Source of the DNA: Nitrosopumilus sp.
Lineage (GTDB): Archaea > Thermoproteota > Nitrososphaeria > Nitrososphaerales > Nitrosopumilaceae
NCBI GenBank assembly: GCA_965205675.1
Contig: OZ242186.1
Span: 1,152,001-1,216,000, forward strand
Direction: 5' to 3'
DNA length: 64,000 nt
The notes beneath the pieces were generated by a model. It was given only the letters and a program-made list of their open reading frames with translations. It was not told the origin of the DNA and searched no databases. The translations under genes and the position numbers were made by a program. This document shows, in pieces, positions 3,486 to 55,549 of this stretch (position 1 is its first letter; each line of letters begins with the position of its first letter).

Positions 3486-4085
3486 ATGTCAAAGAGTACA
3501 AGACAATCCAAGGTTTCCTCTGGGAATCAATTCATGAAAGGTACAAGCATTAATTTTTTGAGAAAAGCATGCAAGAATGAAAAAAATGCAAAAGCAAAGA
3601 TAAGATTAAAGGCTGCAATACTAAGAAAACAAAATATTCCGTATTCTGTGATATGTGCAAGTCTGGATGTCATACCATCAACTCTGTCCTACTGGCTAAA
3701 TCGAATGGATGAAGAGGGAATATCTGCATCACGCCGCAAGAAATATTCTGGTTCTAGATGTTTTTTAAATGAAAAACAACTAGTATCATTAAGAAATGAT
3801 CTGATTTCAGGTCCTCAGAGATTTGGATTTAATCAATTCATGTGGAGTACAAGAATGGTAATTACACATGTGAATAAAAAATACAACACCCTATACTCTG
3901 CACGTGGAATGCGAGAATTGCTACACAGAATTGGATTTTCATCTAAAAAACCACGTCCCACACATCATAAATCAGCCTCAAAAGAGGAACAAACCCGTTT
4001 TAAAAAAACGCAAAAAGGAGTATCAAAAAATATTCCAAATTGGGACATATCACGCTATGTCTGGATGAGTCAACAAACAAGATAG
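3486..4085 (+). CDS. IS630 transposase OrfA (HTH part)
   Basis: HTH with WSTRMV...LLHRIGFSSKKPRP motif; slippery TTT AAA AAA AC at 3999-4009. Confidence 0.85.
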   Translation: MSKSTRQSKVSSGNQFMKGTSINFLRKACKNEKNAKAKIRLKAAILRKQNIPYSVICASLDVIPSTLSYWLNRMDEEGISASRRKKYSGSRCFLNEKQLVSLRNDLISGPQRFGFNQFMWSTRMVITHVNKKYNTLYSARGMRELLHRIGFSSKKPRPTHHKSASKEEQTRFKKTQKGVSKNIPNWDISRYVWMSQQTR

Positions 4086-4546
4086 CACCTAACATAAAGC
4101 GCGGATGGTATCTTGCAGAGAATAACATTACCACACCAATTAATTACACTCGAGAAAAATTTCAATCATTTGGTGCATTGGGGAATAACGGTGTATTTTT
4201 TTGCAAGTTCTATGATAAATCAAACACAGACTCATTTCTTGATTTCTTAAAATCCTTGCAGAAACAATTTGGTAAGAAACTGTTATTATTTGCAGACAAT
4301 GCATCATACCACAAAAGTGTCAGAGTAAAAGAATTTCTCAAAGCATCAAAAAGAAATGTAATCATAAGATATTTTCCTGCATACACTCCAGAACTCAATC
4401 CAATTGAGGTACAGTGGAGAGAAGAGAAAAATGGTAATGCCAATACATTCTTTGCAAATGGAACTGAGATGAGAAAACACATGCAGAAGAGACTAGATAA
4501 TGGAGACGTTCGAGTTGTGAAATTATTCAAATATTTAATGCCTTAA
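4040..4546 (+). CDS. IS630 transposase OrfB (DDE), fused to OrfA by a -1 frameshift
   Basis: LDES, DNASYH and PAYTPELNPIE motifs; the -1 frame is open from the A7 run at 4002-4008. Confidence 0.85.
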   Translation: MGHITLCLDESTNKIAPNIKRGWYLAENNITTPINYTREKFQSFGALGNNGVFFCKFYDKSNTDSFLDFLKSLQKQFGKKLLLFADNASYHKSVRVKEFLKASKRNVIIRYFPAYTPELNPIEVQWREEKNGNANTFFANGTEMRKHMQKRLDNGDVRVVKLFKYLMP

Positions 4547-5131
4547 CTATATTACAGATGACAAGTCACATGATTCAAAACATTTCATATCGCTAGTTGA
4601 GCAATCAAAACAGTTTGGCAATGTCACTAAAACTTTGGCTGATGGTGCATATGATACAAAGGATAATTTTTCATATCTGTATTATGATAATGATATTCTA
4701 CCTGCAATTAAAACAAGAAAAAACTCATCAGTTGTAACTGATTGTTATCCTCGGAGAAAGTCTGTTTTGGCACAATTGTATAACTTGGATCTATGGAAGC
4801 TCAGCGTAAGCTATGGGGATAGATGGATTGTAGAGGGAGCATTCTCTGTATTCAAAAGAATGTTTGGAGAGCATGTGACATCGCACAAGAGAGAAAACAT
4901 GATTCATGAATTGAAAATGAAAGTTTGTCTGTACAATAAAATGATTGCAATGCAATAGAATCAGAAATGATTTCAAAGCATCAAAGAGTGTTGATGGTTA
5001 TTTGGGGTTGGGAAACAAAGCAGTACTTGGGAAAGTAATCCAATTTAGATCACAAACTAACCATTATTTCATCAGTTAAACAACAAATTTGGATAGAAAA
5101 AGCTTGATGGAGGTGTGCTGCTCCATCAAAT

Positions 5132-5498
5132 ATGAATCATAATCTTGATTTTGCACACCTTAGAAATTCAACAACTCAAGCATTTGCAAATATTGCTAAA
5201 ATAATGTGCACAACATTGTCGTTTTCTACTTCACAGAAAAACAACGCACAATACAATTCAGAGGACATTCATCATTTCATCATGGAGTGTTGTCTTGGTA
5301 ACTGTTATTCTGAATCAACTACAAAGAAATTGAAGATAAAAACAGAATGCATCATTCCATCAGGCTCTTGGATTAGAAAGCAGATTGCAAAAATACCGCA
5401 AGAGAAAATGATTATTGCATTATCTGATGAAATTGATCAAACAATTACACACCTAAAGAATTTGGGAATGTTGAATCATCCAGTAACTGTTGCAATTG
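5132..5498 (+). pseudogene. ISH3 transposase N-terminal fragment
   Basis: ...IPSGSWIRKQI...PVTVAI, cut by the IS3 end at the codon expected for the first catalytic Asp. Confidence 0.8.
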
Positions 5499-5635
5499 TG
5501 GTCTGGTCCCCTCTAGAGTAGGACCGGTAGCATACATACACTTTTCAGATAACTTGGGAGGCTTACCCTCATGGTAAAGAGCAAATTCACATCAGCAGAA
5601 AAGTCAAGAGTGGTTTTAGAGTCACTAAACACAAA
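5499..5635 (+). mobile_element. Left-end fragment of the IS3 element (copy of 55187-55323)
   Basis: 137 bp matching the intact copy from TGGTCTGGTCCCCT to CACTAAACACAAA. Confidence 0.92.
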
Positions 5636-5679
5636 TCTATGTGAAATCTTTAAAAACATTTGCACTCTTTTGCAACACA

Positions 5680-5855
5680 TGAGAATGGCTACCGCTAGAG
5701 ATGATCCCATTCATTTTCAAAAGATGAAACCGGACACATATCTATTCGAGGATCTCCCTCAGTACCATTCTTCATCCATTTATCAGAACCATGCCGCAGT
5801 TACAAAACGAGGATCTCCCTCAATATGTTTAACGAGGATTATAGTTCTGATCATA
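5680..5855 (-). ncRNA. Candidate bridge/seek RNA of the IS1111-type element
   Basis: Two stem-closed loops (5782-5851, 5723-5776), each capped by the same 15-nt hairpin UGAGGGAGAUCCUCG; loop segments resemble the donor junction and target. Position downstream of tnp matches IS1111 seekRNAs. Folding done by eye only. Confidence 0.65.
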
Positions 5856-5863
5856 ATGTTTCA

Positions 5864-6973
5864 TTATGCATTTTTGATGCACTGGTAAAATGTCATGTTG
5901 TTTTTTAACATCCAGTAAATTATTCTCAACAGTTTGGATGCTGCTGCCACTGCAGCTTTTGATGTCCCCCTCTTTTTTGCAAGACGTTTGTAAAAATTTG
6001 TAATGGTGCTGTTTTTTGCATATCTTACATGAGAATGTACTGCCTCCACCAGAACCCAGCGTAACATGCTACTTCCTCTTCTTGTTATGGACCCATGGCG
6101 TATGGTGTCAGCTGAGTTTCTCACCGATGGTACAATTCCTGCATATGAACACAGTTTGTGAGAATCTGAAAATCTTTCGATATTGTCAATTTCAGAGGAT
6201 ATGGTTAATGCAGTAAATCTTCCAACACCAGGTATTGATTCTAAGAGTTGTGCATTAGAATCATGTTTTAGAGCATCCTTGATTCTCATGTCTGACTCTG
6301 CGATTCTATCATTGATTGATATTGTCATCTTGAGATATCCATCTATTCGATAGTCATCTAATCCCAACAGTTTGTGCACATATGAATCAGAAAATGCAGT
6401 TCCTGGTATCTTGATTGCATTTTGTAAGGTTATACTGTGAATCAAATTTTTCATCCTTGTCCTGTTGCGGACTAGTTTGGTTCTATATCTCACCAGTTGT
6501 CTTGTTTGCACGGTATCTTTTTCTGGTACATGACAAGATGAGATGTATCCTCCTCTTAGCAAATCTGCCAAGATGTGAGCATCAATCTTGTCAGTTTTTT
6601 TCTTTGATGCTGCAATTGCTTTTGTGTGATATGGGTTTGATAGTATTACATCAAATCCTAGTTCGTCTCGCAGAAACCTAAACACGCCATACCAGACAGA
6701 TGATGATTCCATTACACATTTTGAGTTTTTTGGGATTGCAGAAAATACTTTTTTGATATCCTCTCTGGTGTTTGTAATTTTTTCATTGAATAATGTATGT
6801 CCTTTATCATCCATTGTTTCGACCTGTAAGAATTCTTTGTGCAAATCAATTCCGACATAGGTCATGGGTTTTGTCTTTCTAGTCCTAATGATTTTCTTTG
6901 GTTTTTTCTTGGAGGTGTATCTTTTAGAAACTATAGAATCAGCAGTACCATCTAAATTTCGTTGTTTATTCAC
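5864..6973 (-). CDS. IS110/IS1111 recombinase (DEDD RuvC-like + Tnp domain); start is GTG 6973 or ATG 6865
   Basis: YVGIDLHK, VMESS, KKTDKIDA, SIPGVG, YAGIVPSVRNSA and AASKLLRIIYWMLK motifs. Confidence 0.93.
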   Translation of the reverse strand: MNKQRNLDGTADSIVSKRYTSKKKPKKIIRTRKTKPMTYVGIDLHKEFLQVETMDDKGHTLFNEKITNTREDIKKVFSAIPKNSKCVMESSSVWYGVFRFLRDELGFDVILSNPYHTKAIAASKKKTDKIDAHILADLLRGGYISSCHVPEKDTVQTRQLVRYRTKLVRNRTRMKNLIHSITLQNAIKIPGTAFSDSYVHKLLGLDDYRIDGYLKMTISINDRIAESDMRIKDALKHDSNAQLLESIPGVGRFTALTISSEIDNIERFSDSHKLCSYAGIVPSVRNSADTIRHGSITRRGSSMLRWVLVEAVHSHVRYAKNSTITNFYKRLAKKRGTSKAAVAAASKLLRIIYWMLKNNMTFYQCIKNA

Positions 6974-6982
6974 ATATGGTTA

Positions 6983-7325
6983 CTTTGCAACAAATATCAA
7001 AAGAGCAGAGATATCCCAAGACATTTGGCAAATCCAGGACCAGTATCGCAGAAGGTGGGGAATAGAGACAGGTTATGCATGTGTGGAAAAGTTCAGACCA
7101 AGGACATGCAGTGTTAATCCGACTGTCAGGTTTTTGTATTTTTTCTATCCTTTGATTTTGTTTAATGCATGGGTTATTGCAAATTGTACGTTGAAGAATA
7201 TTTGTTCTATCAATCACACAAATCCAATAATTACAATTGAGATCCTCAAGTGCATCTTTGGAATTATTATTGTGGGTTTCTTTAGAAGAATAAAATCCCA
7301 ATACTATTTGGAAGATGTCAGGTAG
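6983..7325 (+). pseudogene. ISH3 transposase C-terminal fragment
   Basis: FATNI...YRRRWGIETGY...RFLYFFYPLILFNAW, the IS4/ISH3 YREK signature. Confidence 0.85.
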
Positions 7326-7403
7326 TTACTTTCCCAAGTACTGTAGACAGATACAAACAAGCCCATTTTTATTTCATGTAAAAAATTAACAAGTGAAAAT
7401 AAG

Positions 7404-8306
7404 TTATCTACGCTTAGATTTTTTAGAGGTGGTCTTTTTCTTTGCAGGGCTCTTTTTAGAGGTGGTCTTTTTCTTTGCAGGGCTCTTTTTAGAGGTGGTC
7501 TTTTTCTTTGCAGGGCTCTTTTTAGAGGTGGTCTTTTTCTTTGCAGGGCTCTTTTTAGAGGTGGTCTTTTTCTTTGCAGGGCTCTTTTTAGAGGTGGTCT
7601 TTTTCTTTGCAGGGCTCTTTTTAGAGGTGGTCTTTTTCTTTGCGGTAATTTTTCTTCGATTTGCCAGTAATTCTTTGAGTTTAACATTAGCTTTATCTAA
7701 AGACTTTTGTGCAGATTCTTCGGTTTTGATTCGTTTTTGTAATTCTTTAAGAAATTTTTGGACAGATTTGTGATTTGCAGTTTTAGTTTCACGTAAAGAA
7801 GGCTTTGATTTAGTTTGTTTTTGGATTTTAGAGACAATTTTAGATTTAATACCAGAGAAAGCAGCGACATCGTCTGAAATCTTTTTTGCAGTTTTTTGCC
7901 TACTTTTAATTTCTTCAATTAATTCACGCACATGGTCATTTAATGAACGTAATCTAGTCTCAGCATTTTGTTTTTCTATGAAATTATCAGCAAATTCAAT
8001 TTCTTGTTCAATCTGTTCGATGGTTTCTTTTTCTCTAGCAAGTCGTTCTTCTGCTGTAGTAACTAGTCTTCCAATACTCTCCAATTGGGAATTTTTCCTA
8101 TCAATAACAGTTGAGACATCAGCAGATTCCTCTTTTTCAGACTCTATTTTTTTATCAAGCAAGTGTAAACCAGAAGAAGAGTGTTTTTCAGCAGAACGGA
8201 ATTCTTTAATTTGTTCTTCAGCTTTTTTACGTAGTTTAGTTGCTTCTTGTTTCTTTTGTCGTAGTTGAACTACTATTTTTTCTAATGATGCCAATGATTG
8301 TATCAA
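7404..8306 (-). CDS. Long coiled-coil protein with a histone-H1-like Lys/Thr/Ser/Pro/Ala tail
   Basis: About 220-aa charged coiled coil followed by (AKKKTTSKKSP)x6 + AKKKTTSKKSKRR; start may be TTG 8294 (MASLEK). Confidence 0.85.
   Translation of the reverse strand: MIQSLASLEKIVVQLRQKKQEATKLRKKAEEQIKEFRSAEKHSSSGLHLLDKKIESEKEESADVSTVIDRKNSQLESIGRLVTTAEERLAREKETIEQIEQEIEFADNFIEKQNAETRLRSLNDHVRELIEEIKSRQKTAKKISDDVAAFSGIKSKIVSKIQKQTKSKPSLRETKTANHKSVQKFLKELQKRIKTEESAQKSLDKANVKLKELLANRRKITAKKKTTSKKSPAKKKTTSKKSPAKKKTTSKKSPAKKKTTSKKSPAKKKTTSKKSPAKKKTTSKKSPAKKKTTSKKSKRR
7420..7643. repeat. Perfect 33-bp tandem repeat, 6 full copies + 26 nt
   Basis: Unit TTTTTAGAGGTGGTCTTTTTCTTTGCAGGGCTC, no mismatches seen, no spacers. 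Confidence 0.97.
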
Positions 8307-55258: not shown

Positions 55259-55549
55259 ATGGTAAAGAGCAAATTCACATCAGCAGAAAAGTCAAGAGTG
55301 GTTTTAGAGTCACTAAACACAAACATTGCAACTGCAGAGTTGTGCAGAAAGTACAATATTCATCCACAGACATTCTACCAATGGAGGGAACGATTTGTAG
55401 AAGGTGGCAAGGCATCATTAAATGGCACACCAAACGGAGATGTCTGCAAGAATCTGCAAAAGGAAAATGATTCCCTCAAAAAACTAATCGGCGAGATCAC
55501 AATTGCCAATGACATTTTAAAAAAAACGTTGGAGAACCAGAAAAGATGA
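55259..55549 (+). CDS. IS3 OrfA
   Basis: HTH (AELCRKYNIHPQTFYQW) plus leucine zipper; A8 slippery run at 55519-55526. Confidence 0.92.
   Translation: MVKSKFTSAEKSRVVLESLNTNIATAELCRKYNIHPQTFYQWRERFVEGGKASLNGTPNGDVCKNLQKENDSLKKLIGEITIANDILKKTLENQKR

What the first reader, a model, noticed from the sequence alone, without database searches (positions are those of the whole stretch)
5636..5863. Candidate archaeal bridge/seek RNA: two guide loops capped by an identical hairpin in an IS1111-type element
Seen: the 228-bp region downstream of the IS110 recombinase (minus strand) contains the 15-mer UGAGGGAGAUCCUCG (a GAGG/CCUC hairpin) twice, 61 nt apart (plus 5747-5761, 5808-5822). Each copy sits at the apex of a large internal loop closed by its own stem (AUCAGAAC/GUUCUGAU, 5782-5851; GAUGAA/UUCAUC, 5723-5776). 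A third stem lies at 5683-5712. Joining the inferred ends gives the circle junction CACATAGA-T-AACCATATGTG. Loop 2 carries AUGGU (bottom strand of the junction's right half) and then AUAGAUA (7/7 match to the top strand across the junction). Loop 1 carries UAAACAUA and UUGUAACUGCGG, which match the empty target TAAACACA..TTGCAACTGCAG (55314-55337) with only wobble-compatible transitions. A further UGUUGCAAA (5669-5677) matches the other flank 9/9. Established: IS110/IS1111 recombinases use an NCR-encoded RNA with target- and donor-matching segments, located downstream of tnp in IS1111. Inference: this is an RNA-guided recombinase in an ammonia-oxidising archaeon with a visibly duplicated loop module. 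The matches are short, and both loop-1 segments read as the same target strand, so which segment is the true target guide is uncertain.
Basis: partly seen in the sequence, partly recalled or inferred. Interest (0 to 1): 0.85.

Follow-up and report, generated by a model that had tools for sequence, protein, structure and literature searches.

The report
Archaeal IS110-family element's bridge RNA
The stretch downstream of this archaeal jumping gene's recombinase almost certainly encodes a two-loop guide RNA of the known "bridge/seek RNA" kind, whose short guide segments match each element's own insertion site and ends in dozens of related copies.

Summary
The exact 15-mer occurs twice at the stated coordinates and the stems are present. 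The NCR lies downstream of an intact IS110-family recombinase, in a 1345-bp element (window 5636-6980, minus strand) that has 8-bp subterminal inverted repeats and a TA core.

A covariance model built on this NCR finds 29 copies in the genome and 71 in the 95 sources searched. Of cells, 94% form pairs, and 20 of 28 pairs show compensatory changes (slid controls: 3-9).

Across about 40 distinct RNAs, three matches hold:
- The 5' side of loop 1 is complementary to each element's own right flank.
- The 3' side of loop 1 equals left flank + TA + first LE bases.
- The 3' side of loop 2 equals RE tip + TA.

Each gave 0 of 20000 permutations. Close relatives carry different guides that match their own sites.

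The reading "RNA-guided IS1111-type recombinase in an ammonia oxidiser" is therefore supported by comparison. No expression or biochemical data exist.

This is a new member of a known kind. Left unexplained or unproven:
- a copy of the donor-loop 5' strand inside the LE;
- a possible junction promoter.

The parts
5636..6980 (-). Insertion sequence 'A' (1345 bp), IS110 family, IS1111-like layout: LE, tnp, long 3' NCR, RE
   Evidence: Ends defined by comparing 3 full copies and 1 split copy at 98-99% identity in the genome, whose flanks differ. Coordinates.
6981..6982 (-). Core dinucleotide TA at the left junction (LT-TA-LE)
   Evidence: TA precedes the LE in all copies of families A, B and C.
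5634..5635 (-). Core position at the right junction. It reads TT here (AA on the plus strand) and TA in the other three copies in the genome
   Evidence: The unoccupied paralogous site at 55313-55324 also has TT. This fits an exchange point between the two core bases (inference).
6969..6976 (-). Left subterminal inverted repeat TATGTGAA. It contains GTG at LE position 8 (6971-6973)
   Evidence: Inverted repeat of 5638-5645. GTG at position 8 in 25 of 25 distinct LEs.
5638..5645 (-). Right subterminal inverted repeat TTCACATA
   Evidence: positions -9 to -4 nearly invariant in 34 distinct REs.
5864..6973 (-). Recombinase ORF (369 aa from GTG 6973; 333 aa from ATG 6865), stop TAA 5864-5866
   Evidence: PF01548 E 1.2e-28 and PF02371 E 2.7e-23. 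Aligns to ISCro4 9t56 and IS621 8wt6, E about 3e-12.
5717..5852 (-). Core of the predicted bridge/seek RNA (both loops)
   Evidence: Covariance model R1 hit, 120.7 bits, E 2.4e-25; the only hit in the window.
5782..5851 (-). Target-binding module. Outer stem 5844-5851/5782-5789. Inner stem 5833-5837/5794-5798. 5' guide UUAAACAUAU 5823-5832 (complementary to core A + right flank). Cap hairpin 5808-5822. 3' guide UUUUG-UA-AC 5799-5807 (left flank + core + LE start)
   Evidence: Helices 1-3. Guide/flank tests gave 0 of 20000 permutations. Per-element listing.
5723..5777 (-). Donor-binding module. 5' strand GGAUG 5773-5777 pairs with UGUCC 5732-5736, or GAUGAA with UUCAUC 5723-5728. 5' segment AAGAAUGGUAC 5762-5772 (AUGGU complementary to LE tip ACCAT). 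Cap hairpin 5747-5761. 3' guide AAUAGAUAUG 5737-5746 (AUAGA-UA = RE tip + core)
   Evidence: Helices 4-5. D3 vs RE tip 0 of 20000, D5 vs LE tip 3 of 20000. Distal helix of 7 bp or more in 21 of 40 distinct sequences.
5683..5712 (-). Third hairpin with a conserved small AGC-GNNA-GCU-like stem-loop (5688-5696); function unknown
   Evidence: Seen in alignment A1. AGC/GCU versus AGU/ACU variants read by eye, not counted by a tool.
5649..5656 (-). TATA-like box TTTTTAAA, 14-21 nt inside the RE tip, preceded by GAAAU-like bases and pointing outward
   Evidence: Positions -20 to -15 are at least 97% A/T in 34 distinct REs. The promoter role is inference.
6943..6953 (-). LE-internal direct copy (AGATGGTACTG) of the donor-loop 5' strand, inside the open frame upstream of the canonical Met
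   Evidence: the repeat finder D14. Tracks lineage-specific variants in 19 elements, 0 of 20000 permutations. Unexplained.
55313..55324 (-). Unoccupied A-type target (G-TT-TGTGTTTAG in element sense) in another copy of the IS3-like element that flanks the window copy
   Evidence: (12 places match only the 36 nt of flank).

Best explanation
Window 5636-6980 (minus strand) is an intact, recently active IS110-family insertion sequence with IS1111-type layout, in a Nitrosopumilaceae-like ammonia-oxidising archaeon.

Its 3' non-coding region encodes a structured RNA of about 135 nt (5717-5852) built from two like modules. Each module is an internal loop closed by a stem and capped by a G+C-rich hairpin.

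Module 1 is the target-binding loop:
- Its 5' side pairs with the top strand of the right target half, starting at the second core base.
- Its 3' side pairs with the bottom strand of the left target half plus the TA core and the first LE bases.

Module 2 is the donor-binding loop:
- Its 3' side pairs with the bottom strand of the RE tip + TA.
- Its 5' side pairs with the top strand of the first 3-5 LE bases.

The recombinase is a DEDD/Ser enzyme homologous to IS621 and ISCro4. Bound to this RNA, it would bring the circularised element (RE-TA-LE junction) and a target of the form G-T(A/T)-TGTGTTTA together and exchange strands within the TA core.

Shown here:
- element ends and core;
- protein family;
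- conserved, covarying RNA structure on the tnp-sense strand;
- covariation of all four loop segments with flanks and ends.

Inferred:
- that the molecule is RNA rather than single-stranded DNA;
- that it is transcribed, perhaps as the 3' part of the tnp transcript, ending at the oligo-U after the donor loop;
- that it binds the recombinase, and that the element transposes through a circle.
For: Protein:
- PF01548 + PF02371.
- Full-length alignment to ISCro4 and IS621 chains with the GID, E, TDxxD and Ser positions aligned.

Element:
- 3 full copies and 1 split copy at 98-99% identity with differing flanks.
- TA at the junctions and an 8-bp STIR.
- An empty site of sister family B in the window (CCAA-TA-ATTACA) against its filled site.

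Structure:
- A2: 18 sequences, 90.2% of cells paired, 15 of 28 pairs compensatory. Slid controls: 32-50% paired and 6-9 pairs.
- A3: 71 hits, 52 distinct, 94.2% paired, 20 of 28 pairs compensatory. Slid controls: 35-50% and 3-9.
- Many conserved G-U pairs would be A-C on the other strand. Examples: UG in 51 of 52 at 128-176, GU in 50 at 113-190. This fixes the folding strand as tnp-sense.

Guides (longest run of matching bases):
- T5 vs own right flank: mean 5.0 vs 2.4 for other flanks, n=21; 5.28 vs 2.62, n=39; 0 of 20000 permutations each.
- T3 vs own left flank: 0 of 20000.
- D3 vs RE tip: 0 of 20000. ATAGA, ATGGA, ATGGG and AAGG ends are each mirrored.

Natural reprogramming:
- An 83%-identical relative (L097) has T5 UCAGACAACU and the flank TA-GTTGTCTG.
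- A-type copies in another assembly have T5 UUAAACACAU and the flank TA-TGTGTTTAGG (2 of 3 sites).
- One family with 14 distinct sites has TTTGC-TA on the left in 10 of them (GATGC-TA or GCTGC-TA in the other 4) and TGATTCATAC on the right in 12 of 14. Its guides are CUUGC-UA and UUAUGAAUCA.

Other:
- The segment order (top-strand complement 5' of bottom-strand complement) is the one reported for IS1111 seekRNAs (PMC11187229, section 9 read).
- Distribution: 29 hits in this genome, each beside an IS110-type gene or fragment by comparison. Hits in 24 of 151 genomes of the class.
Against: - No transcript evidence and no biochemical evidence.
- For this particular family (A) the left-target guide is weakly matched. 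Only the G next to the core is shared by 7 of 7 sites and TTG by 2 of 7. The same holds for L033.
- Of the 7 A-type sites, 3 (L002, L003, L067) match the right guide only partly or in a shifted register.
- The donor 5' segment pairs with only 3-5 LE bases. It matches an LE-internal site better, which the standard model does not explain.
- 5 of 21 elements show a run of only 2 with their right flank (L032, L038, L043, L047, L050).
- Permutation tests ignore relatedness of the elements and so overstate significance.
- The window copy's left flank does not come from the same locus as its right flank, so it is not a clean insertion.
- Model R1 did not match the bacterial relatives tested, and Rfam has no match. 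Family membership therefore rests on architecture, not on a shared RNA model.
Confidence: 0.87

Rival explanations
1. The folded, guide-bearing strand acts as single-stranded DNA of the element rather than as RNA. This would resemble the way IS200/IS605 ends read their target by DNA-DNA pairing.
For: The covariation and G-T-compatible wobble pairs show only that one strand folds. They do not show its chemistry.
Against: The enzyme is homologous over its full length to IS621 and ISCro4. The papers read say these use an RNA (PMC13626964 section 4; PMC11208160 section 12). The layout and segment order equal those of IS1111 seekRNAs, which co-purified with their transposases (PMC11187229 abstract and section 9).
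Confidence: 0.04
2. Only module 1 is a guide (a short seekRNA for the target). The element ends are recognised by the protein through the subterminal inverted repeats, and module 2 has another role such as a protein-binding scaffold, terminator or regulator.
For: In IS1111 members the predominant co-purified RNA was short (82-96 nt) and was described by its target matches (PMC11187229 section 9). D5 pairs with only 3-5 LE bases and tracks an LE-internal sequence more closely. The STIRs are nearly invariant.
Against: D3 mirrors the RE tip + TA in every variant class: ATAGA, ATGGA, ATGGG and AAGG, 0 of 20000 permutations. One example is L035, whose RNA is B-like but whose RE tip is ATAGA and whose D3 is AUAGAUA. 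Module 2 has the same geometry as module 1.
Confidence: 0.07
3. The NCR is an ordinary 3' UTR/terminator plus repeats, and the matches to flanks are chance or by-products of site preference.
For: Single short matches of 9-11 nt are common inside one AT-rich element (17 direct-repeat families in 1347 bp).
Against: The structure covaries. Guide segments differ between close relatives and match each one's own site. All permutation tests gave 0 of 20000.
Confidence: 0.02

Closest known systems
seekRNAs of IS1111-family elements (ISEc11, ISPa11, ISKpn4, ISPst6; Siddiquee et al. 2024, PMC11187229; abstract and sections 6, 9, 13 read)
   Same: - The NCR lies downstream of tnp and subterminal inverted repeats are present.
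- The RNA segment complementary to the target's top strand lies 5' of the one complementary to the bottom strand.
- Each IS lineage has its own target.
- Insertion into the ends of other mobile elements.
   Different: - Archaeal host.
- Model R1 finds nothing in the one IS5075 locus tested.
- The protein is only 23.5% identical to the IS5075 transposase.
- TA core; near-identical cap hairpins on both loops.
- Possible 36-aa N-terminal extension read from a GTG in the STIR.
- No experiment has been done on this element.
IS621 / ISCro4 bridge RNA and recombinase (Durrant et al. 2024, PMC11208160, section 12 and passages read; Hiraizumi et al. 2026, PMC13626964, abstract and section 4 read)
   Same: - DEDD RuvC-like + Tnp(Ser) recombinase, E about 3e-12 to chains 8wt6_A and 9t56_A.
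- Two-loop RNA with a target-binding and a donor-binding loop.
- Each loop reads both strands around a shared core dinucleotide.
- Extra bases after the core in the 3' target guide recall 'handshake' guides.
   Different: - The RNA is in the RE instead of the LE.
- The order of strand-specific guides is reversed.
- Core TA instead of CT.
- Long STIRs.
- Bacterial junction promoter versus a putative archaeal BRE/TATA lying wholly in the RE.
Predicted bridge RNAs of ISfinder IS1111 members (93.0% predicted, Durrant et al. 2024, section 12) and large-scale clustering of IS110-adjacent intergenic sequences (preprint 10.64898/2026.10.21.760802, passages read)
   Same: Same approach (covariance models, covariation of loops with target and donor) and the same kind of result.
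   Different: In the passages I read, neither work describes an archaeal or Nitrosopumilaceae family. Their supplementary tables could not be opened, so this family may already be listed there.

Membership tests
IS110 family (DEDD recombinase insertion sequences) | Recombinase with DEDD_Tnp_IS110 (PF01548) followed by Transposase_20 (PF02371) | tested here: met
   E 1.2e-28 (100.3 bits, cut-off 29) and E 2.7e-23 (82.6 bits, cut-off 21.3).
IS110 family (DEDD recombinase insertion sequences) | Catalytic D-E-D-D and the serine of the G..P....S(G/A) motif | tested here: met
   In the HMMER alignment to ISCro4 the query's yvGiD, mEsss, kTDkiDa and GivPsvrnSa align with fiGiD, mEats, kTDavDa and GltPrryeSg. 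That these are the catalytic residues is taken from the papers (PMC11187229 section 6) and from recall.
IS110 family (DEDD recombinase insertion sequences) | Sequence-specific insertion with a short shared core at both junctions and no long target duplication | tested here: met
   TA at both junctions. Empty versus filled site of family B. Conserved flanks within families.
IS1111 subgroup | Subterminal inverted repeats of 7-17 bp | tested here: met
   TATGTGAA (LE positions 5-12) and TTCACATA (RE positions -10 to -3).
IS1111 subgroup | Long non-coding region downstream of tnp that holds the RNA | tested here: met
   231 nt from stop codon to RE tip; R1 hit at 5717-5852.
IS1111 subgroup | Transposase clusters with IS1111-type transposases across its full length | tested here: inconclusive
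   23.5% identity over 98% of the query to the IS5075 transposase gene. Similar E-values to the IS110-group enzymes IS621 and ISCro4. No tree was built.
Bridge RNA / seekRNA | Two internal loops, each closed by a helix and capped by a hairpin, conserved with covariation | tested here: met
   5 helices; 94.2% of cells paired; 20 of 28 pairs with changes on both sides against 3-9 in slid controls. Also.
Bridge RNA / seekRNA | One loop carries segments complementary to opposite strands of the left and right target halves around the core | tested here: met
   T5 and T3 tests gave 0 of 20000 permutations each. Listing. The left guide is weak for family A itself.
Bridge RNA / seekRNA | The other loop carries segments matching the element's two ends (donor) | tested here: met
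   D3 = RE tip + TA, 0 of 20000. D5 complementary to the LE tip for 3-5 nt in 17 of 19 elements (2 nt in L042 and L046), 3 of 20000.
Bridge RNA / seekRNA | Transcribed, bound by the recombinase, and required for transposition | not testable with these tools
   Needs RNA-seq, pull-down and recombination assays.
Any Rfam 15 family | Score at or above the family's gathering threshold | tested here: not met
   7 matches at E 0.42-8.6, all far below gathering scores and none in a bridge-RNA family.

The most novel reading that the evidence does not exclude
The element carries an archaeal-style control circuit that has not been described for bridge recombinases.

- A conserved BRE/TATA box lies wholly in the RE, 14-21 nt from its tip. 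Only after circularisation would it start a leaderless mRNA exactly at the GTG inside the left inverted repeat.
- That mRNA would encode a recombinase with a basic N-terminal extension and would carry the bridge RNA in its 3' part.
- The copy of the donor-loop 5' strand inside that extension's coding sequence would be a second, cis-acting site. Through it the RNA-protein complex could read the template strand, or its mRNA mimic, of its own gene and so limit its own expression.
Probability: 0.2. Interest if true: 0.75.

Novelty: new member of a known kind. Interest (0 to 1): 0.6.

Why it matters
Bridge/seek RNAs were defined in bacteria. Here an explicit, comparatively validated family appears in ammonia-oxidising archaea, which are AT-rich and have few genetic tools.

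The family supplies dozens of natural 'reprogramming' events: the same scaffold with different guides, each matched to its own site. This is a ready-made specificity data set and a compact candidate scaffold of about 135 nt.

It also helps explain the very high IS load and nested IS structures of some Nitrosopumilus genomes, because one family uses the left ends of its relatives as targets.

The LE-internal guide copy and the RE promoter give testable leads on how such elements are regulated in archaea.

Tried and rejected
- Rfam 15 scan of 5000-7500 at E up to 10: only sub-threshold chance matches.
- The look-up of sequencing runs (kind rna): no RNA holder listed, so expression could not be examined.
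- Read laying on 4 DNA-contig runs: short contigs only. No contig joined across the element and no circle junction or empty site was shown, so nothing can be concluded from uncovered parts.
- Model R1 against a bacterial IS5075 locus and an Aminobacter IS110 locus with filters off: best E 2.7, no real match.
- R1 with default filters: no hit in the loci with bacterial or uncultured-bacterium titles among L103, L115, L116, L118, L121, nor in the Thermoplasmatales locus L114.
- Covariation between the last bases of D5 and the bases after the core in D3, looked for by eye in the and 61 listings: none seen.
- Whether D5/LE-copy mismatches are wobble-compatible for RNA pairing to the bottom strand: 1 compatible, 2 not, 1 transversion (by eye). 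Uninformative.
- Direct repeats between LE and RE in the two bacterial loci: nothing comparable that I could place inside the elements.
- MFE folding of the single NCR recovers module 1 but mispairs module 2 with the tail. I rely on the alignment instead.
- The proximal and distal closing helices of module 2 could not be told apart.
- Supplementary files of the papers were not opened. The ISfinder-wide table of Durrant et al. and the cluster lists of the 2026 preprint may already include this family.
- Literature searches behind the statement that no archaeal bridge RNA is described. Passages read.
Full report
**1. What is at the site**

The minus strand of window 5636-6980 is a 1345-bp insertion sequence, here called family A.

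- It contains a recombinase ORF, 6973-5864. This is 369 aa from a GTG, or 333 aa from the ATG at 6865.
- The ORF carries the two IS110-family domains PF01548 (E 1.2e-28) and PF02371 (E 2.7e-23).
- The protein aligns over its full length with the solved bridge recombinases ISCro4 (9t56) and IS621 (8wt6), E about 3e-12. The GID, E, TDxxD and Ser positions are in register.
- The genome is one 2.01-Mb contig and holds two more full copies, one copy split by another insertion and one fragment, all at 98-99% identity.
- Comparing their flanks fixes the ends. In element sense the ends read ...G-TA|ACCATATGTGAA...TTTCACATAGA|TA-TGTG....
- The 8-bp subterminal inverted repeats are TATGTGAA and TTCACATA, and the core is TA.
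- The genome encodes archaeal AmoA (E 1.9e-116).
- Relatives of the recombinase in the named collection carry titles such as Nitrosopumilus sp., Cenarchaeum sp. and Nitrosopumilaceae.

So 'ammonia-oxidising archaeon' is right.

**2. The observation**

- The 15-mer occurs exactly twice, at 5747-5761 and 5808-5822. None of 100 shuffles gave a match.
- The NCR folds better than shuffles, z -2.73.

**3. Sister families and homologues**

The same genome holds two sister families.

- Family B has about 10 copies and is about 60% identical in protein.
- Family C has about 9 copies and is about 57% identical.
- Their NCRs have the same plan as family A but different loop sequences.

Their targets differ.

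- B inserts at CCAA/TCTAA-TA-ATTACA. An empty copy of this site lies in the window at 7224-7236, and the filled site is seen.
- C inserts into the left end of A, B or C elements (ACYA-TA|TGTGAA). This gives nested elements.

Relatives of the recombinase occur in 62 of 301 genomes sampled from the class. That tally includes G000 and the unpublished G282, from which no sequence was used.

**4. Structure**

I made a MAFFT alignment of 18 NCR cores (A2). The structure I wrote from the window sequence has five parts: an outer stem, an inner stem, cap 1, the donor-loop stem and cap 2.

- On A2, 90.2% of cells pair and 15 of 28 pairs have changes on both sides. With the 3' partners slid by 1-3 columns the figures are 32-50% and 6-9 pairs. 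RNAalifold found the same helices on its own.
- The covariance model R1 finds 29 places in this genome. By comparison with the tblastn table, these lie next to IS110-type genes or fragments.
- R1 finds 71 places (52 distinct) in the 95 sources searched, and only one in the window.
- On that alignment, which is fitted to the model, 94.2% of cells pair and 20 of 28 pairs are compensatory. Slid controls give 35-50% and 3-9.
- Several pairs are almost always G-U, so the folding strand is the tnp-sense strand.
- R1 hits 24 of 151 genomes of the class at E <= 1e-5, spread over five of the coded families.

**5. Guides**

I call the loop sides T5, T3, D5 and D3. For 21 elements from different genomes and families I extracted the four segments, the ends and the flanks.

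- The reverse complement of T5 matches the element's own right flank just after the core. The longest run averages 5.0 against 2.4 for other elements' flanks, 0 of 20000 permutations.
- With 39 distinct RNAs taken from A3 the figures are 5.28 against 2.62, again 0 of 20000.
- T3 equals left flank + TA + the first LE bases, 0 of 20000.
- D3 equals the last five RE bases + TA and follows each variant of the RE tip (ATAGA, ATGGA, ATGGG, AAGG), 0 of 20000.
- D5 is complementary to the first 3-5 LE bases in most elements (2 nt in L042 and L046): ACCAT/AUGGU, ACTAT/AUAG, GTCAT/GAC. Here 3 of 20000 permutations reach the observed value.
- These permutations ignore relatedness and so overstate significance.

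The per-element listing shows the point directly.

- L097 is 83% identical to A in protein. It has T5 UCAGACAACU and the flank TA-GTTGTCTG.
- A-type copies in another assembly have T5 UUAAACACAU, and 2 of their 3 sites have the flank TA-TGTGTTTAGG.
- In the window's genome the guide is UUAAACAUAU, which pairs with the same site through one G-U.
- A family with 14 distinct sites has guides CUUGC-UA and UUAUGAAUCA. Its left flank reads TTTGC-TA in 10 sites and GATGC-TA or GCTGC-TA in the other 4. Its right flank reads TGATTCATAC in 12 of the 14.

The order of the segments is the one reported for IS1111 seekRNAs, where the complement of the top strand lies 5' of the complement of the bottom strand (PMC11187229, section 9).

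**6.

- The segment UAAC[U/C]GCG is conserved in A, B, C and most homologues. It consists of core, first LE bases and the 3' strand of the inner stem. The 12-nt match to TTGCAACTGCAG is therefore not a guide match. TTGCAA is also a palindrome, which explains why both segments seemed to read one strand.
- The real left guide of A is UUUUG-UA-AC, and it is only weakly used. The base before the core is G in 7 of 7 A-type sites, and TTG occurs in 2 of 7.
- The 9-mer in the tail is at chance level.
- The donor loop can be closed in two ways. By eye, a few homologues carry compensating variants such as AACGAA/UUCGUU and GGAGGG/CCCUCC. The alternative GGAUG/UGUCC pairs in 98.8% of cells. The two helices exclude each other and I cannot tell which one forms.

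**7. The window copy itself**

- Its right flank (5513-5635) is the first 123 bp of an IS3-like element that has at least 14 copies.
- 12 other places in the genome match only the 36 flank bases and stop at the junction.
- One unoccupied copy is at 55313-55324 and reads G-TT-TGTGTTTAG. This fits the TT found at the right junction of the window copy if exchange occurs between the two core bases (inference).
- The left flank (6983 onward) belongs to a different gene, the C-part of an IS4/ISH3-like DDE transposase whose N-part is at 5100-5512.
- About 480 bp present in another copy of that gene are missing here.
- The window copy is therefore an insertion followed by a rearrangement, not a clean insertion.
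- Logan contigs are too short to show an empty site or a circle.

**8. Things the standard model does not explain**

(a) The 5' strand of the donor loop is repeated in direct orientation inside the LE (6943-6953).
- The repeat follows lineage-specific variants in 19 elements: mean shared run 6.7 against 4.2, 0 of 20000 permutations.
- It has exceptions: L079-type LEs, L032, L042, L044 and L046.

(b) In 25 of 25 distinct LEs a GTG lies at LE position 8.
- The frame stays open from it to the catalytic GxD motif, while the other two frames close early in most.
- The peptide contains a conserved R-x-S/L-D-G/S, and the LE repeat lies in these codons.

(c) All 34 distinct REs carry GAAAU-N-UUUAWAAA at -27 to -14 from the tip.
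- The rule that an archaeal TATA box is centred about 26-27 nt upstream of the start is recalled, not taken from a call.
- By that rule a circle junction would start transcription on that GTG.
- I offer this as a hypothesis only.

- They are identical in 5 of 41 distinct RNAs, including the window's.
- This would fit recognition of both caps by the same protein surface (inference).

**9. What is known, and novelty**

- Bridge RNAs (PMC11208160) and seekRNAs (PMC11187229) are established for bacterial IS110 and IS1111 elements.
- Durrant et al. predicted an RNA in 93.0% of ISfinder IS1111 members, located in the RE (section 12).
- A 2026 preprint clustered 181,180 IS110-adjacent intergenic sequences from bacteria and archaea (passages).
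- Archaeal IS110 recombinases are known (preprint 10.1101/2024.06.21.599552, passages).
- One Nitrosopumilus assembly has the highest IS content reported among archaea (PMC13343696, passage).
- In what I could search and read (and the passages above) no archaeal bridge RNA family is described.
- R1 matches none of the bacterial loci tested, and Rfam has nothing.

I therefore file this as a new member of a known kind. It works like an IS1111 bridge/seek RNA and meets every defining feature that could be tested here. Expression, binding and activity remain untested.

Noticed in passing
window 6943-6953 and 5762-5772: The donor-loop 5' strand is repeated in direct orientation inside the LE, within the open frame upstream of the canonical Met. 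The repeat tracks lineage-specific variants across 19 elements and has some exceptions. It is unexplained.
   Followed up: partly
window 5649-5656 (and -27 to -14 of 34 distinct REs): A conserved BRE/TATA-like box points out of the RE. Together with the TA core and a GTG at LE position 8 (25 of 25 LEs, frame open into tnp), it suggests a junction-dependent leaderless recombinase mRNA.
   Followed up: partly
window 5100-5635 and 6983-7330: The two flanks of the window copy come from different elements: an IS3-like 5' end on one side and an IS4/ISH3-like DDE gene on the other. About 480 bp of the DDE gene are missing compared with another copy, so a rearrangement lies beside the IS.
   Followed up: partly
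genome copies listed (e.g. L008): Family C elements insert into the left end (ACYA-TA|TGTGAA) of family A, B and C elements, giving nested IS pairs. At least five C-B tandems are present in this genome.
   Followed up: partly
window 7224-7236: An unoccupied target of sister family B (CCAA-TA-ATTACAA). It matches B's guides UUGUAAUUAU and UCUAAUAAC, and lies inside the DDE transposase remnant.
   Followed up: yes
window 5718-5722: An oligo-T tract (CTTTTG) follows directly after the donor loop and is conserved in many homologues (alignment A2/A3). It may be the 3' end or terminator of the RNA.
   Followed up: no
window 7393-7690: A 33-bp tandem repeat lies inside the ORF 7404-8306 (minus strand). 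It encodes repeated KKTTSKKSPAK units at the C-terminus of a coiled-coil-like protein.
   Followed up: no
window 3486-4958: More transposase remnants lie upstream: HTH + DDE_3 (IS630-like, apparently in two frames) and a DDE_Tnp_1 fragment. The region is an IS graveyard.
   Followed up: no
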